Source: Mobula hypostoma
Lineage: Eukaryota
Assembly: GCF_963921235.1 (NCBI RefSeq)
Contig: NC_086097.1
Span: 110,796,001-110,860,000, forward strand
DNA length: 64,000 nt
Reading direction: 5' to 3'
A program made the translations under genes and the position numbers. Of this stretch, positions 3,091-63,645 are shown piece after piece. The notes under the pieces are model-generated. The model was not told the DNA's origin. It was given only the letters and a program-made list of their open reading frames with translations, and ran no database searches. Position 1 is the stretch's first letter; every line of letters starts with the position of its first letter.

Positions 3091-4204
3091 CTGTCAACTT
3101 TCCTGATACGTCCATGGGGTCAACTGTTAAGGTATCTAGTGTGTCAACTATTTCATTTACCAGTTAGGCCAGTTTTTATGTTGGCAAGTGGTCTCATGCA
3201 GGACCGTAAAAAAGGAAACAGTGGTGGAATCACTCTGCTCGTATCAAAGTGGCAGAGAGCAAGGAATAACCCGAGGTTTGGATGATTTAAGTGGCAGGCC
3301 AGATTGAAATTGGTGGGTTTGGAGTTGATAAACGGGCTGGTTTGGCTCGCTGCCCTGCGGGCTTTGCTCCTAGGTGCTGGACTGAGGCTATGGCCTGCAA
3401 CTAGTGGGCTTCCAGATGGGCTGCAGTGATGCCTGGCATTGTCAACTTCAGTCCTGAACACTGTCTGCTTGCTTTTATTGTATGCACGATTTGTTTTTCT
3501 CTCCCTTTGCATGGTCTTCTTTTGTTTTCAATGGGTTCTATTGGGGTTCTTTGTTTTGTGGCTGCCTGTAAGGAGATAAAATCTCAAGGTTGTATAACGT
3601 ATACATACTTTGATAATAAATGTACTTTGAACTTTTAACTTTGAACTTTGAACATCAGTAGAACTTCCTTTTCAGTCATCTGTGAGGAATTCAGAACACT
3701 TTGAAAATACTTTAAGATATATTGCCAGCTTCTGCTTTCACTTAATTGTTGGCGAATATTACCTCTGCCTTTTCCACTGCAGTTCTGGGCAAATATTTAT
3801 AAGAACCCACGATCTTCATTGCCATTTGCAATATGAGAGATTCTAGAATGAGGGTTTAGCTTTGGCAGTGAGTGGGCTGTTGAGATGTAGGCAGCCCACT
3901 GATTGGCAAGTAAGAAATTATTCTGCTGCTCAGGACACCTTTTGACCAGAAACCAACAGTAAATAGTTTCTTAACTACTGGGAACATTCTGCTTCTGAAA
4001 TTAGGTACAACACTTTTGCTGCTGGAGTAGAATTCTACAATTGATTCAGAAACAAAGTTGAATTCCACCGCAGTATCTGGGGAATTTAGATTCAAGTAAT
4101 TAATTAATTTGGACTTTTTAAAATGAAAAGATAGTTTCAGATACTGGTAACCACTGGACTGTCATACAACGCACCATGTTCCACTATGTCAAACAGCAAA
4201 GAAA

Positions 4205-5212
4205 ATCTTAAACACATGAGATTCTGCAGATGCTGTATATCAAGACCAACAAACACAAAATGCTGGAGGAACTCAATCAGGTCAGGCAACATCTATAGAA
4301 ATGAACCAACAGTCGAAGTTTCAGGCCAAGACTCTTCCTCAGGACAAGAAAGGAAGGTGAAAGAAGCCAGAATAAGGTGTGGGGGAGGGGGGGTCAACAG
4401 GAGTACAAGCTGAAAAAGGAGGAATCTGATAGGAAAGGAAAGTTGACCATGAGAGAAAGGGAAGGAAGATGAGCAACAGGGGCAGTGATGGGGGGGAGAG
4501 AGGAGGAGAGAGGGGGAAGGGGGGAAAGGGGGAAGGGGGAAGGGGAGGGGGAGGGGAAGGAGGAAGGGGAAGGAGGAAAGAGGAAGGGAGGGGGAAAGAA
4601 GAGGGGGAAAGAAGAGGGGGAAAGAAGAGGGGAGGGGGAAGAAGAGGGGAGGGGGAAGAAGAGGGGAGGGGAAAGGTAAAGAAGAGGGAAGGGGAAGGGG
4701 AAAAGAAGAGGGAAGAGGGAAGGGGAGGGGGGAAGGGGGAAGGGGGAAGGAGGATGGGGAAAGAGGAAGGAGGAAGGAGGAAGGGAGGGAGAAGGAAGGG
4801 GGAAAGAAGAGGGGAGGGGAGGGGAAAAGAGGGGAGGGGGAAGGGGGAAAGAAGAGGGGAGGGGAAAAGAGGGGAGGGGAGGGGAAAAGAGGGGAGGGGG
4901 AAGGGGAAAAGAAGGAAGGAGAAGGGAAAAGAAGAGGGAAGGGGGAAGGAGGAAGGGGAAGGGGGAAGGGGGAAGGGAGGGGGAAAGAAGAGGGGGAAAG
5001 AAGAGGGGGAAAGAAGAAGGGAGGGGGAAGGGGAAAAGAAGAAGGGGGGGAAGGGGAAAAGAAGAGGGGAGGAGGAAGGGGAAAAGAAGAGAGAAGGGGA
5101 AGGGGAAAGATGAGGGAAGAGGGAAGGGGAAAAGAAGAGGGAAGAGGGAAGGGGAAAAGAGGGAAGAGGGAAGGGGGAAGGGGAAAATTATTGGAAATTA
5201 GAGATGTTCTGG
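4205..5212 (-). mobile_element. PLE 3' fragment with a greatly expanded purine tract
   Basis: Terminal module at 4210-4345. PLE sequence resumes after the GA tract (GGTGGAGGCTACCAAGACAGAAAATGAGGTG). Confidence 0.7.
4485..5187. repeat. About 700 bp of near-pure G/A low-complexity sequence
   Basis: Almost only G and A, with irregular GGGGAA/GAAGA units. Confidence 0.95.
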
Positions 5213-6013
5213 TGGAGGCTACCAAGACAGAAAATGAGGTGCTTCTCCTCCAGAAAATATGTCATCCTTTACCTAGACTGAGCTACATACACTTCCAAAA
5301 TTGTTGACTCCCAATTCAGTTGAGGGGAACTTATGGATGGACAATAAATACCAGAATTTTGTGTTTTGCAGATCAGGCCCATAACTACAGTAAGCAGTTG
5401 GCAGAAATTCTACAAATGAAAACAAGATAGTATATAATCGCATTATATTAGCTCTAAAATTTCCTGCTCAATCTTTTTATTTCCTGTGAGGTCAAAACTC
5501 TAATGGAAACAGTTTATGGCAGAGAGTGAAGTTGGCTAGTCCGTAGTATAATGGAAATAGGGAAGGGGAATCGACGGTATGAATGCAGATTGAGCACAAT
5601 GGCAGACCAGTGAGTAACTAGTGACAGACAAGCTTTCAGGGCAGCATTAGAAGTCTGGCTCAGTGGAAGAACACAGCAGGACAGATGGCCTTAATCAGAG
5701 CAACAAGAAATCCAATTGCTCCTCACACCAAAACTGAAAATGAGAGATTAAAAAATGAAATTAAAAGCCAAGCATCATCTTTGCAGTCCAGAGGCCTAGA
5801 GTATAGAAAGGCCTTCGGCCACCATGGACTTGCTGACTCTTGTTTACCTACACTGATCCTATTTGTCCGCATCAGATGAGTGTCAGTCCCATTCAAAACT
5901 CTCTTAAACTAAGATATCCCATTTGATTCACTTTGTTTCAGCTATCAACCACTTTGTGTATTAAAAATAACTTCCCCATCACATCATCATTCCTTCCATT
6001 CTGCTAAAACCTA

Positions 6014-6235
6014 TGTTGGAAATATTTGAGATATCTTGTATATATATACAGGTTGATTAAGCATTCTTGTTCATTTAAATAATTCAGTGCAGGTAATATG
6101 CATAAATACGTGAATTGTATACGTCATCATGCTAACACATGATACGTGCACACCTCACTTAAAGTAAACTCAAAGTTACACCACATTTCGGACTCCCAAT
6201 TTTTCCTTTGAATGTGTTGGTTTGAAAACACAACA
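6014..6235. mobile_element. Possible short solo LTR
   Basis: TGTTG...CAACA termini with a TATATATA box and AGTAAA; no TSD seen. Confidence 0.35.
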
Positions 6236-7894
6236 TCTTCCTGTTTCTGACAGGTGGGAGGCTTTCACAGCAGAGCAGCATGCAGTGTACTGCACGGGGC
6301 CTCCCAAATCTAAACACATACACTACCTCAGACTTACAGGGTAGAGACTAGAATCGTGAAAGGTGGAGCAGCCATCTTGAGACACATCAATAGTTTTTAA
6401 TAGTGATTACCATATCAAAGACAGAGGCAGGGGTCTGAGAAAACAGAAATGGACTGATGATTTGAGGGTCAAGGATTAGAGCGCAAGGACTTGGAAGTGG
6501 AAAATAAGTGAATTCATAGACGAAGATTGTGCAGTTGCTAGTAATCTTGAGACAGATAGAGACACACACACACACTCACACTCTCTGCCGGAGGGGAAAA
6601 TGCAGTTGACATTTAGGACTGCGACCCTTCCTCACAGCTCCTGAGTCCTGATGAAGGGTCTCGGCCTGAAGCGTCAACTGTCTTGTCCCCATCCATAGAC
6701 GCTGCCTGACCAGCTGAGTTCCTCCAGCATTTTGTGCGATTTCACAGACAGCCCCTTTCACTTCCAGACACAAGCAACTGGTTGGGGGAAATGAGTTATG
6801 GATGCAAAACACTGTCCTATATGCTACAGCTACTAACTTAAAAAGCCTTGAATTCAGCCTCACTTGACACTTGAATAGTTAATACGGATTCAAGCTTAAA
6901 TCAGTACTGGGTGAGTCCTAATCTACTGTCAGGTTAAACCAAGTCATCCCTGTTCTGTCCTGTCCTCTTGCGTGGACGCAGTATTGCTTGAAGTAAAGCA
7001 AGTCATTGAACAAAGTATATCTTCACAGGATCCAAGGGAGAATTACAGATTAGATCTAAAATAGGTGCTGGATGAAAATAAAGGGTATTGTGAGTGCAGT
7101 TCCACAGGTTTCAGTGAGAGGGCCTTAGTTTTTGTAATTGAATTTTATCATAGAAAAATGCAGCATGGAAAGAGACCATGTGGCTCACACGGTCTGCACT
7201 GACCATTACCCACCCCTGGGTGGATCTCTGGCACTTCAAGTCTACGTACAGCACAACCAGCTGTACCAGCACTCACAAGCCCATAAGAAGGATTACAGTC
7301 TGAAACGTCCACCATAGATGCTATGACTTGCTGAGATCGTCTAACCTTTTGTGTGTGTTGATCAACATCTGCAGAATCTTGTGTCTGTATCACCACAGCT
7401 ATAACATCTGGACAAGCCATGGCCTAGAATCTTCTGTTTGTATCACCGCAGCTATGCCATCTGGACAAGGCATGGCCTAGAAGGATATGGGATATCTTAT
7501 TTATTTAGAGATAAGGTACAACAGGCCTTTCTGGACCAATGAGCCACACTGGCCAGCAACCCACCTATTTAACCCTAGGGCAATTTACAATGACCAAACA
7601 CCCTACTAGCCCCCACGTCTTTGAACTGTGGGAGGAAACTGGAGCAGGCGGAGCAAACCCACGCACTCACGGGAAGGACGTACAAACTTCTTACAGAGGA
7701 TACCAGAATTGAACGCCGAACTCCAATGCCCCACGCTATCACAGCATTGCACTATTGTGACAGGCTAAATATACGGTGCTGGTAAATGAGATGCGTTTAG
7801 ATGAGTAATAATGAGACATGGTGCGCCAAAGCAAGGTTTCAGTGCATGACCTTATGACTTGGCTGGTCTGTCAGAAAAATAGTAAATGGAATTT

Positions 7895-8385
7895 AAAGCA
7901 ACACACAATTTGCTGAACGAACTCAGCAGGCCAGGCAGTATCTATGGAGAGGAATAAACAGTTGATGTTTCAGGCCAAGAACTTTCTTCGGGACTGGAAA
8001 GGAAGGGGGAAAATACCAGAATAAAAACATGCGGGGAGGGGAAGGAGGACAAGCTAGAAGGTGGATGGTGATAGGTGAAGCCAGATGGGTGGGGGGGGGG
8101 GTGGATGAGGCAAAAAGCTGGGAGGTGATGGGTGGTAAAGGTAAAAAAGGCTGGGGAAGAAGGAATCTGATAGGAAAGGAGAGTGGACCATGGGAGAAAG
8201 GGAAGGAGGGACACCAGGGGGAGGTGATAGGCAGGTGAGGAGAAGAGGTAAGAGGCCAGAGTAGCGAATAGAAGAGGGAAGGAGAAATCAATACCATCAG
8301 GTTGGAGGCTAGCTGGATGTAAAATGAACCAACACACCTAAAATGCTGGAGGAACTCAGCAGGTCAGGCAGCATCTATGGTAATG
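7895..8385 (-). mobile_element. PLE 3' fragment with a second partial terminal module
   Basis: ASLQPDGIDF...SSPEESSWPETSTVYS; AACTCAGCAGG..AGGCAGCATCTATGG occurs twice. Confidence 0.7.
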
Positions 8386-8504
8386 AATCTGTGAGGTAAT
8401 GCTGTTGAGGTGTTGCAAAAAGGTAAGGAGCTAAGTAAGTGATTAGGAGAATATTGAGTGCTGAGAAGGAACAGAAGGGCCATTAGAATTTGTTTACTAA
8501 TTTT

Positions 8505-9473
8505 AAAGGCAGTAACATAAGCACTGGGGCTCCACAGGGGACTGTCTTGCCTCCCTTTCTCTTCACCATTTACACCTCGGACTTCAACTACTGCACAGAG
8601 TCTTGTTATCTTCAGAAGTTTTCGAATGACTCTGCCATAGTTGGATGCATCAGCAAGGGAGATGAGGCTGAGTACAGGGCTACGGTAGGAAACTTTGTCA
8701 CATGGTGTGAGCAGAATTATCTGCAGCTTAATGTGAAAAAGACTAAGGAGCTGGTGGTAGACCTGAGGAGGGCTAAGGCACCGGTGACCCCTGTTTCCAT
8801 CCAGGGGGGTCAGTGTGGACATGGTGGAGGATTACAAATACCTGGGGATTCAAATTGACAATAAACTGGACTGGTCAAAGAACACTGAGGCTGTCTACAA
8901 GAAGGGTCAGAGCCGTCCCTATTTCCTGAGGAGACTGAGGTCCTTTAACATCTGTCGGACGATGCTGAGGATGTTCTATGAGTCTGTGGTGGCCAGTGCT
9001 ATCATGTTTGCTGTTGTGCTGGGGCAGCAGGCTGAGGGTAGCAGACACCAACAGAATCAACAAACTCATTCATAAGGCCAGTGATGTTGTGGGGATGGAA
9101 CTGGACTCTCTGACGGTGGTGTCTGAAAAGAAGATGCTGTCCAAGTTGCATGCCATCTTGGACAATGTCTCCCATCCACTACATAATGGACTGGTTGGGC
9201 ACAGGAGTATATTCAGCCAGAGACTCATTCCACCGAGATGCAACACAGAGCATCATAGGAAGTCATTCCTGCCTGTGGCCATCAAACTTTACAACTCCTC
9301 CCTTGGAGGGTCAGACACCCTGAGCCAATAGGCTGGTCCTGGACTTATTTCCTGGCATAATTTACATATTACTATTTAATTATTTATGGTTTTATTACTA
9401 TTTAATTATTTATGGTGCAACTGTAACGAAAACAAATTTCCCTCGGGATCAATAAAGTATGACTATGACTATG
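8505..9473 (+). mobile_element. Rex1/Babar LINE 3' fragment, young
   Basis: TGAPQGTVLPPFLFTIYT, LQKFSNDS, LNVKKTKELVVD, YKYLG and KSFLPVAIKLYN; AATAAA plus a (CTATGA)n tail. Confidence 0.9.
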
Positions 9474-11034: not shown

Positions 11035-11960
11035 CATACACACAAGAGATTCTGCAGATGCTGAAAATCCTAAGCAACACAAAATGCTGGAGGAACTCAG
11101 CAAGTCAGGCAGCATCCATGGAGGGGAATAGAGAGAAATGGAGAACAAATCTAATAGGAGAGGACAGTGGACCATGGAAGAGAGACCAGAGGGAGGTGAT
11201 GAGCAAGTGAAAAGAGAAGGGAGGGAGAGGGGAACCAGAATGGGGAATGGAAAAAACGAGGGATGCAGGAGAAATTACCTCCAGTTAGAGAAATCAATGT
11301 TCATGCCATCAGGTTGGTAGGATACCCAGAAGCTGTCACCCCTCCACCGTTGCAGTAGAGGTGGCCATGGAGAGACATGTCAGAATGGGAATGGGAAGCT
11401 GAACTGAAATAGGTAGCCATTGGGTGATCTGCCTTTACGGCAAGCAGGACGGAGGTGTTCAACCAAGCAGTCACCCAATCTGCATTGGGTCTCATCGATG
11501 TAGAGGAAGTCACACCAGGAGCATCGTATACAACAGATGACCCCAGCAGACTCACAAGAGAAGTGCCACCTCACCTGTAGGGACTGTTTGGGGCCCTGGT
11601 GCTGAGAGAAAAGGTGTAGCGGCAGGTGTAGCACCTGTCACAATTGCAGGGTTAAATGCCAGGAGGGAGATCAGTAAGGAGGGTCGAGCAGACAAGGGAG
11701 TCACAGAGTATGATCTCTTTCGAAAGTTGAGAGTAGGGGGAAGAAGTTATGAGATTAGTGGAAGGATCCCATTGCAGACGACAGAAATTGCGGAGAATGG
11801 TGTGCTGAATACAGAAGCTCACGGGATAATAAGGACAAAAAAGATCTCTATCCCCTTTATGGCAGTGGGAGTATGGGTTGAGGGCAGGTGTGTGGGAAAT
11901 GGAGGATATGCAGCTGAGGGCAGTATCAATAGTGGTGGACAGAAAACCCACTCTTTGACA
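11035..11960 (-). mobile_element. Penelope-like element fragment inserted in a minus-strand CR1 fragment (10735-11035 / 11960-12140)
   Basis: GIY-YIG-like CSWCDFLYIDETQCRLGDCLVEHLR and MATYFSSASHSHS, plus the terminal module at 11035-11130. Confidence 0.8.
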
Positions 11961-30211: not shown

Positions 30212-33110
30212 AACAAGAGAAAATCTGCAGATGCTGGAAAACCAAGCAACACAAACAAAATGCTGGAGGAACTCAGCAGCATCTACGGAAAAGTGAACAG
30301 TCGACATTTCGGGCCAAGACCCTTCATCTCTGGAGGAAAAAAAATGAGGAATCAGAGTTAGAAGGTGGGGGGGGGGAGTAAACAGCTTTGAAGTTGATCA
30401 GTGAAAGAGAGACAGGGCTGGAGAAGGGGGAGTCTGAAAGGAGTGGACCAAAGGCCATGGAAGAAAGAAAAGGGGGAGGTGCACCAGAGGGAGGTGATGG
30501 GCTGGTAAGGAGTTAAGGTGAGAAAGGGAAAATGGGAATAGGGATTGCTGAAGTTGGGGGAGGGGGCATGACCAGAAGTTCGAGGAATCAATGTTCATGC
30601 CGTCAGGTTGGAGGCTACTCAGACGGAATATAAGGTGTTGCTCCTCTGACCTGAGTATGGCCTCATCGCAACAGTACAAGACTGACGTCTTGGAATGGGA
30701 GGTGGAATTAAAATGGGTGGCCACTGGGAGACCCTGCTTTTTCTGGCAGACAGAGTACTTGGCAAAGCAGTCTCCCAATCTACGTCACATCTCTCCAATA
30801 TACAAGAGGCCGAACCAGGAGGACCAAATACAGTAGATGACCTTAACAGACTCACAAGTGAAGTGTCGCCTCACCTGGAAGGACTGCTTGTGGCCCCGAG
30901 TGGTAGTGAGGGAGGAGGTGTAGGGGCAGGTGTAGCATTTGTTCCACTTGCAAGGATAAGTGTCAGGATGGAGATCAGTGAGGAGGGTCGAATGGACAAG
31001 GGAGTCGCTTAGGGAGCGATACTTGCAGAAAGCAGGAAGTGGGGGAGGGGGGAGATAAATATCTGCTTGGTGGTGAGATCCTGGTGGAGATGGAGGCAGT
31101 TATAAAGAACTATGTGCTGGATGCGGAAGCTGGTGGAGTAGTAGGTGAGGACAAGAGGAACCCTATCCCTGGTGGGGTGGCAGGAGGATGCGGTAAGGGC
31201 AGATGTGCACAAAATGGAAGAGATGCGGTTGAGGGCAGTGATGATGGTAGAGGACGGGAAGCCCCTTTCTTTGAAGGAGAAGGAAATCTCCTTAGTTCTG
31301 AAATGAAAAGCCTCATCCTGAGAGCAGATGCAGCGGAGAAAGGAATAGAGAAGGGTGTGGCATTTTTACAAGTAGGTTTATAATAGACATCAGTAGATAA
31401 GTTGTCTCCAGAGACAGAGACAGAGTGATCGAGAACGGGGAGGGAGGTGTTTGAAATGGACCAGGTAAATTTGAGGGTAGGGTGGAAAATGGAGGCAAAG
31501 TTGGTGAAGTCAACGAGCTCGGCATGGGTGCAGGAAGCAGCGCCAATGCAGTTGTCGATGTAGCGTAGGAGAAGTTGGGAACTGACGGCGGTGTAGGCTT
31601 GGAATATAGACTGTTCCACGTAACTGACAAAAAAGCAGGCAGAGCTGGGACCCATGCGAGTGCCCATGGCTGCACCTTTGATTTGATGGAACTGGAAGGA
31701 GCCAAAGGAGAAATTATTGAGAGGACAGGTCCTGTCAGACGGAGGAGAGTTGTGGTGGAGAGGAACTGACTGAATGTTATGTCCATAAAGAAACGGAAAG
31801 CTTTAAGGCCTTCCTGGTGGGGGATGTGTATAGGATCTGGACATCCATAGTGAAAGTAAGATGATGGGGGCCAGTTTATTTGAAATAATTGAAAAGATCC
31901 AGAACGCGTGATGTGCCATGGATGTAGGTAGGAAGGGACTCGACCGGGGGATAAAACAGAGTCAATGTAAGTTCAGTGGGGCAGGAACACACAGAAGCAC
32001 TGGGTCTACCTGGACAGGCAGGTTTGTGGATCTTGGGTAGGAGGTAGAAATAGGAGGTGCGGGGTGAGGGAACTATGAGGCTGCTGGCAGTGGATGGGTG
32101 ATCACCAAAGTTAAAAAGGTTGGTGATGGTGCAGATGACAATGGCCTGGTGCTCCTTAGTGGGGTCTTGTTTCAGGGGCAAGTAAGAGAAGGGGGTCTGA
32201 GAGTTGTCATCTGGCCTCAGTAAGGCAGAGTTCAGTCTGCCAGACTACTACACCACCCCATTTATCTGTTAATGGTAAGGTCAGGATTAGTGAGGAGAGT
32301 GGAGAGCAGCGAGTTCAGAAGGAGTGAGGTTAGAATTAGAGAGAGGAGTGGTGAAGTCGAGTCGGTTGATGTCCCGTCAGCAGTTGGCAATGAAAAGATC
32401 TGGAGCAGGCAGAAGTCTAGAGCGGGGTGTCCAGGAAGAGGAGGAGGGTTGAAGACGGGAGAAGGGGTCATTGGTGCGGGCTGGAGAGTCCTTGCCAAAG
32501 AAGTAGGCAGGGAGGCAGAGGTCATGGCAAGCACAGAACTCACTGAGGTGTGGGCGCGGGGGGCCCAAAGGAGAGGTCCTTACTGAGGACAGAACATTCT
32601 GCCTCAGAGAGGGGAAAGTCGTAGGGAATGGTGAAGACCTGGCATGGATGAGAGCTGGGATCTGGGTGGGGGGGGAGGCGGTTGGTAGTGTCTGAGGAGA
32701 GAGGAGGCTTGGGGTGTTCAGGGAAAGTGGGGTGCTGGGAAGACAGAGTCTCCGAAGACCCAACAGCTGGTGGTGGGACCTGAGAGACACAGGATTGCAG
32801 AGTGGTGGTGGGGGAAGTGGAGACAGGGGTTCCTGTGACAGGGTGCAAAGTAGAAGTTGATATCTGTAAGGCCCACACAATGAGCTAGAAAATTACAATG
32901 TATGGGATCTGAGATTTTTTTGACAAAGTGGATCCAAAACACACTCCTTCTATCTCAGTAAAGTTTTTGGGCGGAGCTGAGGCCTCAGATGACCCTTCAT
33001 CAGAAGCTGCCACCACTGCTGCCATGAGCTGCCCATTAGCTTCAGCAGTGCTGCGGAGGAGAACGAGCGGAGCGAATGAGTGTGAGAGCATGCTCGCTAA
33101 ACGTCACTGA
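30212..33110 (-). mobile_element. Penelope-like retroelement (RT plus GIY-YIG), long degenerate copy
   Basis: Broken ORFs include FYLLPKIHKPACPGRP (31876-32181), MGTRMGPS...LLRYIDN (RT YIDD region, 31110-31667) and the C-terminal PVATHFNSTSHS...EEQHLIFRLSSLQPDGMNID (30398-30778). The terminal module is at 30212-30330. Confidence 0.9.
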
Positions 33111-33789
33111 GAGGCAGGGCTGAGCAGAGGAGCCGACACGCGTGTCACCCCATCACGGGGGGACAGACACAGCTGCCGCCAGCGCCTGCCAAGCACAGCG
33201 AGAAATCAGCATATCGGAGGGAGATTGAGAACATGCCTGAATGCTGCATTAACAACTTCTCACTCAGCATCAGCAAAACCAAAAAACTGATTATTGATGA
33301 CAGATGGATGACACCAATGACCATGAGCCAGTCATCATCGGGGATCAGAGGAGGAGAGGGTAAGTAGCTTTAAATTCCTCGGCATTATCATTCAGAGCAT
33401 CTGTCCTGGGTCCAGAAGTTAACTGCCATTAAGAAGAAGACATGGCAGTGGCTCCACTCTCTTTGAGGTTTGCACGGATTTGGCATGTCACCTGAAAGGG
33501 TACACTGGAGCGTACAATGAACAGAACAGCTCAAGGTTCTGAATATCTGCTGCATCCAGTCCTGAATAATAATGAACTGTTAACTAGTCAAAGGAAGGCT
33601 CTGACAACTCCCCAATACTCAGCAAGGATAGAGCTCAGCATGTACTGAAACATGATTGGTCAGAAGTACCAGGTGGATGATCATTCTTGCTTCCTTCTGA
33701 GGTCCAAGTCTTCGATTAATTTGATCAAATACAAGGCTTGGAGCAGTGAATACATCAAATATTACAAGACCAGACTACATCCTATAGCT

Positions 33790-34179
33790 AACAACAGGAA
33801 TTCTGCAGATGCTGGAAATTCAAGCAACACACATCAAAGTTGCTGGTGATCGCAGCAGGCCAGGCAGCATCTCTAGGAAGATGTACAGTCGACGTTTCGG
33901 GCCGAGACCCTTCGTCAGGACTAACTGAAGGAAGAGTTAGTAAGAGATTTGAAAGGGAGAGGGGGAGGGGGAGATCCAAAATGATAGGAGAAGACAGGAG
34001 GGGGAGGGATGGAGCCAAGAGCTGGACAGGTGATAGGCAAAAGGGATATGAGAGGATCATGGGACAGGAGGCCTAGGGAGAAAGAAAAGGGGGGGGGAAC
34101 CCAGAGGATGGGCAAGGGGTATAGTCAGAGGGAGAAAAAGGAGAGAGAGAGAGAGAAAGAATCTGTGTATAAAAATAAA
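33790..34179 (-). mobile_element. Young non-coding PLE terminal insertion with a 14-bp TSD
   Basis: TACATCCTATAGCT at 33776-33789 and 34180-34193; contains the intact hammerhead. Confidence 0.85.
33887..33922 (-). ncRNA. Minimal type I hammerhead ribozyme in a PLE terminal module (intact core)
   Basis: Minus strand reads AGTC-CTGACGA-A-GGG TCTCGG CCC-GAAA-C-GTC-GACT: stem I AGUC/GACU, CUGANGA and GAAA boxes, stem II GGG/CCC, palindromic ACGU stem III and a GUC cleavage triplet. Confidence 0.75.
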
Positions 34180-34206
34180 TACATCCTATAGCTGTAGTCT
34201 TGAGTA

Positions 34207-34997
34207 CTGACATAGTTATAGTCATACTTTATTAATCCCAGGGGAAATTGGTTTTCGTTACAGTTGCTCCATAAATAATATATAGTAATAGAACCATAAA
34301 TAGTTAAATAGTAATATGTAAATTATGCCAGTAAATTATGAAATAAGTCCAGGACCAGCCTATTGGCTCAGGATGTCTGACCCTCCAAGGGAGGAGTTGT
34401 AAAGTTTGATGGCCACAGGCAGGAATGACTTCCTATGACGCTCTGTGCTGCATCTCGGTGGAATGAGTCTCTGGCTGAATGTACTCCTGTGCCCACCCAG
34501 TACATTATGTAGCGGATGGGAGACATTGACCAAGATGGCTTGCAACTTAAACAGCATCCTCTTTTCAGACACCACCGTCAGAGAGTCCAGTTCCATCCCC
34601 CCAACATCGCTGGCCTTACGAATGAGTTTGTTGATTCTGTTGGTGTCTGCCACCCTCAGCCTGCTGCCCCAGCACACAACAGCAAACATGATAGCACTGG
34701 CCACCATAGACTCATAGAACATCCTCAGCATTGTCTGGCAGATGTTAAAGGACCTCAGTATCCTCAGGAAATAGAGAAGGCTCTGACCCTTCTTGTAGAT
34801 GGCCTCAGTGTTCTTAGACCAGTCCAGTTTATTGTCAATTTGTATCCCCAGGTATTTGTAATCCTCCACCATGTCCACACTGATCCCTGGATGGAAACAA
34901 GGGTCACCTGTACCTTAGCTCTCCTCAGGTCTACCACCAGCTCCTTAGTCTTTTTCACATTAAGCTGCAGATAATTCTGCTCACACCATGTGACATT
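34207..34997 (-). mobile_element. Rex1/Babar LINE 3' fragment, same subfamily as 8505-9473
   Basis: ORF 34360-34878 is nearly identical to the ORFs at 8815-9331, with the same tail. Confidence 0.9.
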
Positions 34998-37984: not shown

Positions 37985-39845
37985 ACCCTTTGTTTCTGCC
38001 TGCTCCTGCCGCACTGAACTCATGTCACCATACCTCAGCTCCATCTTGTCCCCATTAGCTCAGTCCTTTCCTACCTACATCCATGATACTTCACGTGCTC
38101 TCCATCACATCAATCACTTTAAGCCCTGATCGACTCATTTTCACTATATGTGTTTAGGGATGCCCAATCCCTATACACATCCACTCCCCCCCCCCCCCCA
38201 TCCATCATGAAAACCTTAAAGTTCTGCTTCTTTCTGGACAACAGTCCTGTTCCCCTCCATCACCACCTTCCTCTGTCTGGTGGAAATGGTCTCACCCTCA
38301 CCAATTTCCCTTTTGTCTCCTCCCACTTTCTCCAAACCCAATAATGGCACCCACACGACCCCAGCGATGCCTGCTTTTTTGTCAGCTACGATGAACAGTC
38401 CGTGTTCCAAACCTATACTGGTAACGCTCCCTTTGCCACATTGATGACTGCATTGGTGCTGCTTCCTGCACATTGCCTCCAACTTCCACCTGCTCACAAA
38501 CTTACTCGATCCATCCCTGATACCTCTTCCCTCTTTCTCCATCTCTCTGACTCCAACTCTGAGGGCAGACTGTTTGCTGATATCTTTTATAAACCTACTG
38601 ACTCTCAGCGAACTTGACTTTTCCACCTTGTCATTTGTAAAAATGCCATTTCTTTCTCCCAGTTCCACTCTTTCAGTTGCATCTGTTCTCAGGATGAGGC
38701 TCTCTATTCTAGAACATGGAGATGTCCTCCTCTTTCAAAGTAGAGTTTCCCTTCCACCACCATCAATGCTGCCCTCACCCGCATATCATCCATCCTCCCG
38801 CCACCAGAACAGGGATAGGGTTCCTCCTTACCTTACCAGCCACCCCAGGAGGCTTCATATCCAGCATACCATTCTCCGTAACTTCTGCCATCTACAAAGG
38901 GATCCTTACCAGTAAGCACATCCTTCCCTCCCCATCCACCCACCAAAACTCCACTTTCCATTGGAATTGCTCTCTACACAACTCCCTGGTCCATTCGTCC
39001 CTCCCCACTGATCTCCCTCCTGGCACTTACCCCTACAAGCTGGACATGTGCTACACCTGCCCCATGCTGCCTCCCTCGCTACCACTCAGAACCTCAAAAA
39101 GTTCTTCCAGGTGAGGCACCACTTCACCTGCGAGTCTGTTGGGTCACCTACTGTAGCCAATGCTCCTGCCTCTACAATGGTGAGATCCAACGTAGATTGA
39201 GGAACTACTTCATCAAGCGCCTCCACTCTGTTTGCCCCAAAAGGTGGGATTTCCTGGTGGCCACTCATTTCAATTTGACTTCCCATTCCCATTCGAACAA
39301 GTCAGTCCACGGCCTCCTCTACTGCCACAATGATGCCACTCTCAGGTTGGAGAAGCAACACCTCGCATTCTATCTGGGTAGCTTACAACCTGACAGCATG
39401 AATATTGATTTCTCTAAATTCTGATAATTTCTGCCCCTCCCTAGTCTCTCTTCTTCCATTTTCCCATTCTGGTTCCTCTCAGTCCTTCTCTTCTCCTGCC
39501 CGTCACCTCCCTCTAGTGCCCCTCCTCCTTCCCTGGTCCACCATCCTCTCCTATCAGATTCCTTCTTCTTCAGCCTTTCATCCCTTCTACCTATCATCTC
39601 TCAGCTTTGTACTTCATTTTCACCCTTCTACCTTCCCCCTCACCTGGTTTTACCTATCAATTGTCAGCTTGTATAACTTCCCCTCACCCCAATTTCTTAT
39701 TCTCCATCTTCTCCCTTACTTTCCAGTCTTGTTGAAGGGTCTTGGCGTGAAATGTCAGTTATTTATTCCCCTCCATAGAGTTCCTCCAGCATTTGTGTGT
39801 GTTCCCAAGATTTCCAGCATCTGCAGAATCTCCATATTTATGAAC
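37985..39845 (+). mobile_element. Penelope-like retroelement, degenerate 3' half
   Basis: DIFYKPTDS and VATHFNLTSHSHS...RLEKQHLAFYLGSLQPDSMNIDFSKF motifs, then a pyrimidine-rich tract and the terminal module. Confidence 0.85.
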
Positions 39846-46732: not shown

Positions 46733-46839
46733 CAGAATACTACCATTGCCTCCTTCCTGTCTGGACAGACTCACTCCCATCCACTCATTGTTCCTGTTCT
46801 CTCTGCAGGTTTTACCACAAGATTTTCCTTGTTGATTCC
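46733..46839 (-). CDS. ITGA9: Integrin alpha-9, coding exon 3 (107 bp)
   Basis: Acceptor TTCACAG|GG, donor CTG|GTAAGA. Translates (G)NQQGKSCGKTCRENRNNEWMGVSLSRQEGGNGSIL, carrying the alpha4/alpha9 CGKTC...W(M/L)GV motif, in frame with exon 2. Confidence 0.95.
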
Positions 46840-47504
46840 CTGTGAATTCCAAAACAATTTATATACATACATGAATGCCAACAACAGTCAAACAACAGAG
46901 AGAAAATTAATGATATCAGGACAAAATAAATGACAATCAATACATCTTACCTCCATCTAAAAACATTTATAAGCAACAGAAGCAGCAAGTCATCCCACTA
47001 TCATTCAAAAAGATTATGCCTAAGCACCATTTCTAAATTCATCCCATATTCTTTTAATACTAAAAGTCCTATATATCACATAGTATTGTTGCATACAAAG
47101 TCAATACAGTTTTCTGAATGTTGTCACCATTGCTGTAAAGATACACAAGTCTGCAAGTCTTGCAAACTTGTCTTCTGTGACAGTATAGAAACGAAACATT
47201 AATCTCGTAGATATGGTTGCATGCAACTATGAAAAAAGATTAAAATGATAAATCTTTCATTTTTATAGAGCAATAATGCTTATCATAAATTTGTCCTTAA
47301 GTATTTCAGGGACAGGAGTAAAAGGATAGTTGGTTGGCTTCACCTCATGGGTACAGTTATATATGTAACGCTCAATGACAGAGCAGACAGGAAAGGAGAA
47401 AGACCTTTGTGATCAATTCAGGTTCATGTTGTTGACCATCCCCATACCACCACAACCTCCAGGTGCAGCACTGAGTTAGCTGAAGAGCTCACTGACCGAA
47501 ACCA

Positions 47505-48202
47505 CTGAACACATCCACATCAAACGCTGTTCAAGGAAAGCAGCATCCATCACCAGAGATTCCCACCACCCAGGTCATGCTCTCTTCTTGCTACTGCAAT
47601 CAGTTTGAAGATACAAAAGCCTCAGGACTCACACCACCAGGTTCAGGAACAGTTACTACCCCTCAACTATCAAGCTCTTGAACAAAACTACATTCACTTG
47701 CCCCGTTATTGAAATGTTCCCACAACCAATGTCCTCTCTTTAAGCAACATACATCAAAGTTGCTGGTGAACGCAGCAGGCCAGGCAGCATCTATAGGAAG
47801 AGGCGCAGTCGACGTTTCAGGCCGAGACCCTTGTTGAAGGGTCTTGGCCTGAAACGTCGACTGCGCCTCTTCCTATAGATGCTGCCTGGCCTGCTGCGTT
47901 CACCAGCAACTTTGATGTGTGTTGCTTGAATTTCCAGCATCTGCAGAATTCCTGTTGTTTGCGTTTAAAAATCCTCTCTTTAAGGACTCTTTATTTCATA
48001 TTCTCATGTTCTTGCTAGTTATGTATGTTTGCCTTTGCACAGTTTGTCGTCTTCTGCACTCTGATTGAACTTTCACCGATCCTGTTATAATTACTATTCT
48101 ATAGATTTGCCGAGTATGCCCACAGGAAAATTAATTTCAGGGTTGTATGTATGAGGAAGACATATACATACTTTGAAAATAACATTTACTTCAAACTTTG
48201 AA
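47505..48202 (+). mobile_element. Rex1/Babar-type LINE 3' end, host of the fold-back PLE; paralogs at 52510-52950 and 55085-58365
   Basis: CACCACCAGGTTCAGGAACAGTTACTACCCC (TTRFRNSYYP) and an ACTTTGA tail. Confidence 0.8.
47742..47971. mobile_element. Fold-back (inverted) PLE terminal insertion with a 13-bp TSD
   Basis: 91-bp arms at 47742-47832 and 47837-47927 with 2 mismatches. TCCTCTCTTTAAG at 47732-47744 and 47972-47984. Confidence 0.85.
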
Positions 48203-53792: not shown

Positions 53793-53920
53793 CTCGACCC
53801 AGATCCAGCTCTGTACATCTCTTGGCGGGGTTACTGTGGATTCGACATTTGTATACGGCGCCCGGGGACAGCACAGATGAACTATAAGTTGAGTTAGCCT
53901 GGGGGGCCCCAACCAGCACC
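53793..53920 (-). CDS. ITGA9: Integrin alpha-9, coding exon 2 (128 bp; FG-GAP repeat 1)
   Basis: Acceptor TTTTTGCAG|G, donor GAG|GTGGGT. Translates (W)VLVGAPQANSTYSSSVLSPGAVYKCRIHSNPAKRCTELDLGR(G); human ITGA9 reads VLVGAPKADSKYSPSVKSPGAVFKCRVHTNPDRRCTELDMARG (recalled). Phase 2 in, phase 1 out. Confidence 0.96.
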
Positions 53921-54321
53921 CTGCAAAAATTACATCATGTTAAACAGAGGAAATCCGTCTCATGTATCTGCAAATCCAAATATGGCGAGAAAAGACAGAA
54001 CAGATTTAACAGGCAACAGTTAACTTATCTATCAGGAGGAATGCGGTAAAATACAAGAAATTAAATTGTTCACTGTTTCCGGCTCAAATCAAAGAAATTA
54101 TTAAATTAAGCGATTATCCCAGAGCTGACACCCATTCCGCACTGGCATTCGATTTACTTTCAATCTGGAATTATCAAGCAAAAATCTCATAACAAAGAAA
54201 TTAACTTTCCCAGGCTGGAAGTGCCACGGGGTGAGAGGAATGGAGCTGTTACATGGGAGGTTTCAGAGCCAGAAAGTGTGGGGTCGCTTTCTAACCTGCC
54301 GATTCCCCCTGTCCTACTTAC

Positions 54322-54497
54322 CACCGGGTGTTGTCGTGGAAATGCTCCAGCACCGAATACCCGAAGAAAGTCCCGCTAGTTCCCTGAAAAACGACTGGGT
54401 GTTCCAGATCAATGTTGTACGTATGCACCAAACCAAACCAAATAAAAGGCACGCAGAGTTTTAACAACTTCATATCTTCCCCAAGCAGCCCATCCAT
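54322..54497 (-). CDS. ITGA9: Integrin alpha-9, coding exon 1 (signal peptide and start of beta-propeller)
   Basis: Minus-strand translation is MDGLLGEDMKLLKLCVPFIWFGLVHT-YNIDLEHPVVFQGTSGTFFGYSVLEHFHDNTR(W), matching the ITGA9 mature N-terminus (human YNLD...FFGYAVLEHFHDNTRW, recalled). The first in-frame ATG (54497) is in GGAATGG context with an in-frame TGA upstream; a second ATG is at 54473. Donor TG|GTAAGT at 54321, phase 2. Confidence 0.95.
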
Positions 54498-60519: not shown

Positions 60520-62430
60520 AGAATGTAAGAAGGGGACATCACCTTGATAGAATTGCATTGTATGCCCCCAGCCGTTAGCAAGAACTAGTGGAGCTGGTAT
60601 GCATGAAGCTAGGTGTAACGGTAGGTTATTTCAACTTCCCTAATGTTAATTGGGGCTGACATGGTGATAATGTTTGGATGGGGCAGAATTTAAGTGTGTC
60701 CGGGAAATTTTTCTCAAGTTATATGTAAATGGATGTACAAGACAGAAGGAAAACACTGGACTTCCTATTGAGAAATGAAGCAGGACAAGTCTGAAATGTC
60801 AGGAGTGGCGGGGTGGGGGGAAGCACTTCGGGACCAGTGACCATAATTTGACTAGTTTTTAAATACTTAAGGAAAAGGATACAACTGGTCCTTAAGTCCG
60901 AAGATCGAAGCTGTGTAATTTATTGTGAGGTACACACACAAAAAACACTAAAGGAACTCAGCAGATCATGCAGCATCAATGGAGAGGAATAAAGAGGCGA
61001 GGCGTTGGGCCAAGACATTGGCTAATATTGTGCTTTTAATTAAGAAGAACTGCAAGGAACAGCCAGGAAACTGTAGGAAGTGAGTCTAATGACAGTGATG
61101 GAAAAGTTACTGGAGAGGATTCTGAGGGACAGAATCTATCTGCATTTGGAAAGGCAAGGACCGATTAGGGGATAGTCAGTATCACTTTGTTTATGAGACA
61201 TCATGTCTCTGGAATCTGACTGAGTTTTTTAAAGAAATGATGAAGAGACTTGACAAGGGCAGGGTTGATGACCAAGAGAAGTTGTCTACATGGGCTTTAG
61301 CAGGGACTTTGACAAGGTCTCACTTGTATTGCTGGTCCAGAAGGTGAGATCACCAGGGATTCCAAAAGAAGCAGACAATTGAATACAACTGAACAAGAGA
61401 AAATATGCAAATACTGGAAATTCAAGCAACACACACAAAATGCTGGAGGAACTCAGCAGGCCAGGCAGCATCTATGGAAAAAAGTTCAGTCGACATTTCG
61501 GGCTGGAACCCTTTGGCAGGACTGGAGGAAAAAAGCCAAGGAGTAGATTTGAAAGGTTGGGGTAAGGGAGAGAGAAACGCCAGGAGATAGGTGAAATTTG
61601 GAGGGGGAGGAATGAAGCAAAGAGCTAGGAAGTTGAATGGTGAAAGAGGCAAAAGGCCATGGAAGAAAGAAGAAAGGAGGGGGGTGGGAGGAGCAACAGA
61701 GGGAGGCGATGGGTGGGCAAGGTGATAACATGAAAGAGGGACAAGGGGATGGGAAATGGTGAGGCGGGGTGAAGGCATTACTGGAAGTTTGAGAAATCGA
61801 TGTTCATACCATCAGGTTGGAGGCTACCCAAATGGAATATAAGGTGTTGTTCCTCCAGCCTTAGTGTGGCGTTATCCCAACAATGGAGGAAGTCATGGAT
61901 GGACGTATCAGAATGGGAATGAATTAAAATAGGTGGCCACTGGGAGATCCCGCTTGTTCTGGCGGACAGAGCATAGATGCGTGGCGAAGCTATTTCCCAA
62001 TCTCCCAATCTACCTCACTAATATACAAGAGGCCACACCGGAAGCAGCAAACTGGGTATATGACCTCAACAGTGTTGCCTCACCTGGAAGGACTGTTTGG
62101 GGCCCTGAATGGTAGTGAGGGAGGAGGTGTAGGGGCAGGTGAAGCACTTATTCCACTTGCAAGGATAAGTGCCAGGAGGGAGATCAGTGGGGAAGGAATA
62201 CAATATTTGCTTGGTGTGGGAGTTAGAAGGTGGTAGTTGATGGTTGCTTTTCAGATTGGAGCCCTTTGTCCACTGCTATGCTGCAGGGATCAGTGCTGAG
62301 TCCCATGATTTTGTCATCAATATTAACAATTTGGATGAGAACATAGTTACCAGATGATATTTGGTAAGTTTGCAGATAATATCAATCATTGGTGATTCAG
62401 AAGTCAGCAAAGTAAGTTCTCTAGGATTAT
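60520..62430 (+). mobile_element. Old CR1 fragments interrupted by PLE pieces
   Basis: GACCAGTGACCATAAT (SDHN), GATAGTCAGTATCACTTTG (SQH) and GTAAGTTTGCAGATAAT (FAD) remnants. Confidence 0.6.
61390..62200 (-). mobile_element. Penelope-like element 3' fragment
   Basis: RLEEQHLIFHLGSLQPDGMNIDFSNF plus the terminal module at 61390-61525. Confidence 0.85.
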
Positions 62431-63364: not shown

Positions 63365-63645
63365 TTGTGGGAGGGGGAGGGGGAGATCCAAAATGATAGG
63401 AGAAATCAGGAGGGGGAGGGATAGAGCCAAGAGCTGGACAGTTCATTGGCAAAAGGGATATGAGAGGATCCCACTTTCAAATCTCTTACTAGCTCTTCTT
63501 TCAGTTAGTCCTGATGAAGGGTCTCGGCCCGAAACGTCAACTGTACCTCTTTCTAGAGATGCTGCCTGGCCTGCTGCATTCACCAGCAACTTTGATGTGT
63601 GTTGCTTGAATTTCCAGCATCTGCAGATTTCCTCATGTTTGTGTT
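63365..63645. mobile_element. PLE terminal insertion with a 5' inversion, inside a CR1
   Basis: 63368-63470 matches 33956-34059 in the same orientation, while 63471-63645 is the opposite orientation. Confidence 0.8.
63507..63543 (+). ncRNA. Minimal hammerhead ribozyme motif in a PLE terminal module
   Basis: AGTC-CTGATGA-AGGGTCTCGGCCC-GAAA-CGTC-AACTG; the core is intact, with one stem I mismatch. Confidence 0.65.

What the first reader, a model, noticed from the sequence alone, without database searches (positions are those of the whole stretch)
33776..34193. Intact minimal hammerhead ribozyme in sense orientation inside the ITGA9 pre-mRNA
Seen: a 390-bp non-coding insertion with a 14-bp TSD carries AGUC-CUGACGA-AGGGUCUCGGCCC-GAAA-CGUC-GACU on the minus strand, the strand ITGA9 is transcribed from. 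Known: PLEs carry minimal type I hammerheads with a palindromic stem III and are thought to cleave as dimers. Inference: intron 3 contains several other sense-strand copies (~1705, 4210, 7895, 21575, 30212; cores mostly mutated), so the nascent RNA might be cleaved at 33891/33890 through in-cis or in-trans dimerization.
Basis: partly seen in the sequence, partly recalled or inferred. Interest (0 to 1): 0.7.

Follow-up and report, generated by a model that had tools for sequence, protein, structure and literature searches.

The report
Penelope retroelement tail with hammerhead motif
The self-cutting-RNA motif is real and undamaged, but it is the standard tail of a very abundant jumping gene that landed in an intron of a ray's integrin gene, and nothing found here suggests that it cuts the gene's RNA.

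Summary
A 390-bp insert (33790-34179) with an exact 14-bp target-site duplication carries a complete minimal type I hammerhead (33922-33887, cut site 33891|33890), sense to ITGA9 and inside intron 3. It is the 5'-truncated 3' end (pseudo-LTR) of a Neptune-type Penelope-like element (PLE): decayed RT/GIY-YIG copies in this window end in the same tail, and the family is hugely amplified. Cleavage of the ITGA9 pre-mRNA is not supported. None of the 10 other sense copies in the visible gene keeps an enzyme half that could cut this site. The motif is predicted to misfold, with the active dimer about 9 kcal/mol above two monomers. Sense copies are not depleted. Published metazoan PLE hammerheads are silent as monomers, weak as dimers, or need the PLE protein. 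A cryptic splice acceptor is therefore as plausible a route to an effect on ITGA9 as cleavage; neither is shown. The scan has noted this family many times in this genome. Ordinary; low interest.

The parts
33776..33789 (.). Left copy of the 14-bp target-site duplication
34180..34193 (.). Right copy of the 14-bp target-site duplication
33790..34179 (-). 390-bp 5'-truncated 3' end (pseudo-LTR) of a Penelope-like element
   Evidence: aligns to the 3' ends of ORF-bearing relics, starting just after their stop codon; high-copy along its length
33943..34179 (-). Pyrimidine-rich untranslated part of the pseudo-LTR
33921..33942 (-). Candidate 3' splice site: TACTAAC (33942-33936, branch A 33937), short pyrimidine tract, CAG ending 33925 and TAG ending 33921; the second AG is the first two bases of helix I. 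Use not shown
   Evidence: layout parallel to D. virilis Penelope (PMC4209133)
33887..33922 (-). Minimal type I hammerhead: helix I 5' 33922-33919, CUGACGA 33918-33912, extra A 33911, helix II 33910-33899, GAA 33898-33896, palindrome ACGU 33895-33892, C17 33891, helix I 3' 33890-33887
33790..33886 (-). 97 nt downstream of the hammerhead; the last ~29 nt (33790-33817) behave like the optional PLE 'tail'
   Evidence: the inverted arm of the copy at 47738 stops at the equivalent of 33818, its partner runs to 33791; tail described
54321..54497 (-). ITGA9 coding exon 1
   Evidence: tblastn 100% to P0001 residues 1-59
53794..53920 (-). ITGA9 exon 2
46733..46840 (-). ITGA9 exon 3; intron 3 runs from 46732 past the start of the window
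30212..32300 (-). Decayed ORF-bearing PLE relic (RT, C-X4-C-X2-C linker, VIY..YIG endonuclease motif) ending in the same hammerhead tail; upper bound is the stretch I examined, not a mapped end
63474..63639 (+). Only other copy with a strict core; upstream of ITGA9, opposite strand, helix I mismatch next to the cut site

Best explanation
A passenger. A Neptune-type Penelope-like element was reverse-transcribed from its 3' tail, truncated after 390 nt and inserted with a 14-bp duplication into ITGA9 intron 3. It carries the hammerhead that such elements have in their pseudo-LTR. The motif is intact because the copy is young, not because it was selected. It needs a second hammerhead (helix III forms only between two ACGU palindromes) and probably the PLE protein. 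Alone in the pre-mRNA it folds into inactive hairpins and leaves with the intron. Shown: anatomy, PLE origin, position, lack of a cis partner in the window. Inferred: inactivity in vivo and neutrality.
For: The same tail ends four RT/GIY-YIG relics in the window. The RT piece is nearest to eukaryotic RT clusters, score 0.96. The linker fits the Neptune/Nematis CX2-5CxxC motif. There are 21 profile hits and 19 hammerhead-like 36-mers in 64 kb. Summed contig depth over the motif is about 9.3 million against 12-21 on unique flanks in run X1; the tool warns this is no copy number. The copy is 93-94% identical to the two best in-window relatives. Enzyme half intact in 0 of 10 other sense copies. 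The 36-mer folds with GACG paired to CGUC at probability 0.98-1.0; with 30 nt or more of flank helix I has probability 0.00-0.01. Active dimer -14.7 kcal/mol, against -11.9 for each misfolded monomer and -32.1 for the best dimer. In the gene I count 9 sense-only, 3 antisense-only and 4 inverted-pair insertions; 9:3 gives p=0.15, in the direction opposite to depletion. Papers: no monomer and low dimer activity (PMC4209133); protein needed and no RNA ends at the site in Anolis (PMC11167929).
Against: Every core position is intact, including G10.1-C11.1, where 47% of family depth in X1 has the other letter. Nearest-neighbour energies ignore Mg2+ and core tertiary contacts, and I ran no active-ribozyme control. 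The misfold also appears in the U7 copy at 63507, so it is a family trait. Intron 3 beyond the window is unseen. The focal enzyme half could pair with the substrate half of 5 of 10 other sense copies. A 2026 preprint reports related retrozymes under-represented in Xenopus introns. The orientation count is small and grouped by hand.
Confidence: 0.8

Rival explanations
1. One reading: the ITGA9 nascent RNA is cut at 33891|33890 through a hammerhead dimer, in cis or with another family transcript in trans, often enough to affect ITGA9.
For: Intact core in sense orientation. Family sequence is abundant in two runs guessed to be RNA. Dimers cleave weakly in vitro. Fast intronic ribozymes lower splicing (Fong 2009 as cited in PMC10274809).
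Against: 0 of 10 cis enzyme partners in the window. Active dimer disfavoured by about 9 kcal/mol. Slow ribozymes have no effect on splicing. No depletion of sense copies.
Confidence: 0.05
2. Protein-gated ribozyme: the copy keeps 97 nt downstream of the hammerhead, so PLE protein from an autonomous element could bind in trans, refold the motif and allow occasional cleavage or re-mobilisation from the host pre-mRNA.
For: The Anolis PLE hammerhead cleaves only with PLE protein, and RT starts in the downstream region (PMC11167929). PLE protein can act in trans on pLTR-flanked host sequence (PMC3846280).
Against: That work is on the Poseidon clade, where the required RNA ran to +172 of the ORF, longer than what this copy keeps. 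No RNA ends were found in Anolis. None of the 21 profile hits in this window starts at the cut site. No intact autonomous element was seen here.
Confidence: 0.08
3. Any effect on ITGA9 comes from splicing, not cleavage: the pseudo-LTR brings a branch point, pyrimidine tract and AG at the 5' end of helix I, which could act as a cryptic acceptor for exon 3.
For: TACTAAC-TCTTCCTT-CAG-TTAG directly precedes the core, and it is the only minus-strand TACTAAC in the window. Four older copies (7995, 21713, 39725, 61523) keep CCAG|TCC at the same register after 70-90% pyrimidine. The D. virilis Penelope intron ends at the 5' end of helix I, and introns in other pLTRs are suspected.
Against: TACTAAC is not rare by chance (3 seen, 5.4 expected). 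37% of family depth has another letter at the branch A. No strong donor (best 6 of 9 consensus letters) and no AATAAA/ATTAAA follow within the stretch scanned. No splice joint or loose end at 33925/33921 appears among the rows shown, though most rows were hidden. No splice-strength score could be run.
Confidence: 0.07

Closest known systems
Minimal hammerheads (min-HHR) of metazoan Penelope-like elements (Cervera & De la Pena 2014, PMC4209133)
   Same: Type I topology, 4-bp helix I, extra nucleotide between 9 and 10.1, G10.1-C11.1, palindromic 15.2-16.2 without loop 3, pLTR location, mostly solitary truncated copies; reported from fish Xena, Poseidon and Neptune elements.
   Different: Helix II is 4 bp, not the 7-8 bp of the Schistosoma families. 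Copy density here looks far above the 4,000-9,000 given for coelacanth and Xenopus (extrapolated from one window, not counted).
Poseidon element of Anolis carolinensis (PAc; PMC11167929)
   Same: Vertebrate PLE with a pLTR hammerhead followed by an optional tail.
   Different: Different clade (Neptune-type linker here); no ATG at the start of stem II; protein dependence untested here.
Drosophila virilis Penelope pLTR intron and hammerhead
   Same: [quoted passage not shown]
   Different: Splicing is shown for Penelope; here it is only a sequence pattern, and no donor was identified.
Non-LTR retrozymes (bioRxiv 10.64898/2026.07.22.740005)
   Same: Non-coding, PLE-derived, hammerhead-bearing, a few hundred bp.
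   Different: Retrozymes are tandem arrays; this is a single TSD-flanked truncated insertion.
Functional intronic ribozymes such as CPEB3 (PMC10274809)
   Same: Self-cleaving motif in sense orientation in a vertebrate intron.
   Different: CPEB3 is single-copy, conserved and active as a monomer; this is one young copy of a mass repeat that cannot fold as an active monomer.

Membership tests
PLE minimal hammerhead | CUGANGA and GAAA boxes with NUH cut site | tested here: met
PLE minimal hammerhead | Helix I 4-5 bp, helix II closed by G10.1-C11.1, extra nucleotide after A9 | tested here: met
   features
PLE minimal hammerhead | Palindromic 15.2-16.2 with no stable helix III | tested here: met
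   ACGU at 33895-33892
PLE minimal hammerhead | Covariation supporting helices I and II | tested here: inconclusive
   19 decayed in-window copies: 66-197 of 500 shuffles reach the observed values
PLE minimal hammerhead | Self-cleavage as a dimer or with protein | not testable with these tools
   folding predicts inactive states; no bench data
Rfam hammerhead families | Covariance-model score at gathering threshold or E up to 10 | tested here: not met
Penelope-like element (EN+) | Tail continuous with an RT plus C-terminal GIY-YIG ORF | tested here: met
   met for relics that share the tail; the focal copy has no ORF; Pfam and PDB did not recognise the decayed pieces
Penelope-like element (EN+) | 5' truncation, inverted 5' arms, optional 30-40 bp tail, TSD | tested here: met
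   4 inverted pairs in the gene, ~29-nt optional end, TSDs of 14 and 13 bp (features)
Neptune clade | CX2-5CxxC linker between RT and endonuclease | tested here: met
   C-X4-C-X2-C in the 30212 relic; shared with Nematis
Neptune clade | Placement in an RT phylogeny | not tested
   no reference PLE proteins were fetched
Non-LTR retrozyme | Head-to-tail tandem units with hammerheads | tested here: not met
   single insert between TSDs; nearest sense copies 3.6 and 3.8 kb away with broken cores
Co-opted intronic regulatory ribozyme | Orthologous conservation beyond neutral expectation and monomer activity | tested here: inconclusive
   only a hint of sharing with a relative about 2% diverged; no active monomer fold

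The most novel reading that the evidence does not exclude
In this ray the PLE pseudo-LTR is a switchable unit: a 3' splice site overlapping helix I and an upstream anti-core hairpin keep the hammerhead off, while splicing and PLE protein binding turn it on. Many thousands of intact sense copies in introns, this one included, would then act as conditional cleavage or cryptic-acceptor sites in host pre-mRNAs whenever the element is expressed.
Probability: 0.07. Interest if true: 0.6.

Novelty: new member of a known kind. Interest (0 to 1): 0.15.

Why it matters
As one locus it matters little: it is a known motif in a known kind of retroelement. The family is useful because its abundance makes an open question testable by counting: whether PLE hammerheads cleave in vivo. 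If they do, intact sense cores should be depleted in introns relative to antisense ones. If the acceptor at helix I is used, the intron-hammerhead layout of Drosophila Penelope would extend to a vertebrate Neptune-type element.

Tried and rejected
No whole genome is held for this window, so no genome-wide copy count or intron strand test was made. Rfam gave no hammerhead match. A scan of metagenome contigs for the motif found 0. Pfam found nothing useful in 7 pieces and the PDB search with the RT relic found 0. The PDB search with exon 2 gave integrin alpha-4 as nearest solved chain; the gene name rests. Covariation on 19 in-window copies did not exceed shuffles. No RNA holder was listed in the run search. 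All four runs laid were contigs, which cannot show RNA ends; no place where many molecules begin or end was listed, and the two runs guessed to be RNA left most of the unique intron flank uncovered. These blanks are no evidence either way. In those two runs depth relative to DNA is higher downstream of the cut site (0.072, 0.028, 0.012 for X12/X1; 0.158, 0.091, 0.071 for X11/X5; my arithmetic), but the neighbouring LINE spans a similar range, so I set it aside. Retrozyme array rejected (no tandem). Lunse et al. on PLE hammerhead dimers is not held; I saw only its citation and a review's summary. Searches for a paper on ray or shark PLE hammerheads, on intronic orientation, or on PLE splice acceptors listed nothing on point by title or abstract start; subscription journals are not covered, and I read no supplements.

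Full report
Observation. The 14-mer TACATCCTATAGCT lies exactly at 33776-33789 and 34180-34193, bounding a 390-bp insert. A repeat of this length at this spacing arose in 1 of 500 random placements. On the minus strand 33922-33887 reads AGUC CUGACGA A GGGU CUCG GCCC GAA ACGU C|GACU. This gives helix I of 4 bp, both conserved boxes, an extra A after A9, helix II of 4 bp closed by G10.1-C11.1, a palindromic ACGU in place of helix III, and a GUC cut site at 33891|33890. The strict core pattern matches twice in the window against 0.01 expected. Rfam does not recognise it.

Host gene. Exon 2 is closest to cartilaginous-fish proteins named integrin alpha-9. The top hit P0001, named Mobula birostris by its source, matches three minus-strand exons at 100% over residues 1-137, and no later exon scores in the window. 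The insert is therefore in intron 3, which is longer than 46.7 kb, and the hammerhead is sense to the pre-mRNA.

What it is. The same hammerhead and downstream tail end four decayed ORF-bearing relics in this window. The 30212 relic gives an RT-like piece (nearest clusters are RT, mostly eukaryotic, score 0.96), a C-X4-C-X2-C linker and a VIY..YIG motif. The linker fits the Neptune/Nematis type (passages of bioRxiv 2021.04.23.441226); I built no tree. The insert aligns loosely from just after the relics' stop codon to their 3' end. The family shows 5' truncation, inverted 5' arms, an optional end of about 29 nt and TSDs of 13-14 bp, all described for PLEs. It is very abundant: 21 profile hits in 64 kb, and summed contig depth of about 9.3 million over the motif against 12-21 on unique flanks in run X1. 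The tool warns that this depth is no copy number, and no genome is held for a real count. The copy is young, 93-94% identical to its two best relatives in the window. A contig of a related organism runs 21 letters into the element from the left flank, a hint only that the insertion is shared.

Could it cut ITGA9? The motif needs a partner to build helix III. I scored all 19 hammerhead-like 36-mers. Of the 10 other sense copies inside the visible gene, 0 keep an enzyme half able to cut 33891; 5 keep a substrate half that the focal copy could pair with over 4+4 bp. The only other strict core (63511-63538) is upstream of the gene, on the other strand, with a helix I mismatch. Alone, the 36-mer pairs core GACG with CGUC at probability 0.98-1.0, and it folds no better than shuffles (z -0.96). 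With 30 nt or more of flank, helix I has probability 0.00-0.01. The active dimer scores -14.7 kcal/mol, against -11.9 per misfolded monomer and -32.1 for the best dimer. These energies ignore Mg2+ and tertiary contacts, I ran no active control, and the U7 copy misfolds the same way, so this is supporting evidence and not proof. By my hand grouping the gene holds 9 sense-only, 3 antisense-only and 4 inverted-pair insertions; there is no depletion of sense copies (p=0.15 for 9:3). Covariation was not detectable.

Papers. PMC4209133 (parts 1-2 of 4 read) defines these minimal hammerheads, reports them from fish PLEs and by the thousand in vertebrate genomes, and finds no monomer activity and low dimer activity for a Schistosoma motif. 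PMC11167929 (parts 1-2 of 4) finds that the Anolis motif cleaves only with PLE protein, is not needed for insertion in vitro, and leaves no detectable RNA ends. PMC10274809 (passages) cites that slow intronic ribozymes do not affect splicing. Against my reading, bioRxiv 2026.07.22.740005 (abstract, Results part 1 of 2, Discussion) reports related retrozymes under-represented in Xenopus introns, although 42-44% of copies lie there. PMC6765202 and PMC3846280 were seen as passages. Lunse et al. was not available. No supplements were read; they may list shark or ray motifs.

Directly upstream of the core the sense strand reads TACTAAC (33942-33936), a short pyrimidine run, CAG and TAG; the second AG is the start of helix I. 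Four older copies keep a pyrimidine tract plus CCAG|TCC at that register. In D. virilis Penelope the pLTR intron ends at the 5' end of helix I, and introns in other pLTRs are suspected. The consensus motifs are recalled, not from a call. The evidence is weak: TACTAAC is not rare by chance (3 seen, 5.4 expected), 37% of family depth differs at the branch A, and no donor or spliced read was found. Searches listed nothing on this in vertebrate PLEs.

Verdict. Best reading (0.8): an inert, young PLE tail whose hammerhead is a passenger in the intron. Rivals: protein-gated occasional cleavage (0.08), cryptic splice acceptor (0.07), dimer cleavage that affects ITGA9 (0.05). No RNA-end data could be obtained, so inactivity is inferred. 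Earlier notes of this scan describe the same family many times in this genome, and a like case in another genome; they agree but are unchecked and are not counted as support. New member of a known kind; interest 0.15.

Noticed in passing
33921-33942 (-); same register at 7995, 21713, 39725, 61523: Branch point, pyrimidine tract and AG overlap the 5' end of helix I, as described for the D. virilis Penelope intron.
   Followed up: partly
6639/6642, 41132/41123, 47839/47824, 37753, 1835: In 3 of the 4 inverted pairs inside the gene both arms begin in or next to the 5' half of the hammerhead, 20-35 nt upstream of the cut site; two more copies begin there too. None of 21 hits begins at the cut site. 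May be a truncation hot spot.
   Followed up: partly
33912-33937 (-): In most folds with native flanks an upstream stretch pairs with the CUGACGAAG core; starting the RNA at 33924 restores helix I (probability above 0.9) but not the open core.
   Followed up: partly
33363-33810, run X5: A contig of a related organism (about 2% different in the flanks) runs 21 letters into the element, a hint that the insertion is shared; below the tool's 31-letter rule for bridging.
   Followed up: partly
33899 and 33937: The young family is split at C11.1 (47% other letter) and at the candidate branch A (37%) in run X1.
   Followed up: no
34214-34990: A second high-copy LINE-like fragment with a possible 6-bp duplication starts 20 bp from the insert.
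   Followed up: no
47732-47984: Head-to-head inverted copy with a 13-bp TSD whose inverted arm lacks the last ~28 nt.
   Followed up: partly
11042-11958, 38062-39830, 61392-62196: Three more decayed ORF-bearing PLE relics with the same tail.
   Followed up: partly
1-46732: ITGA9 intron 3 is longer than 46.7 kb and dense in repeats.
   Followed up: no
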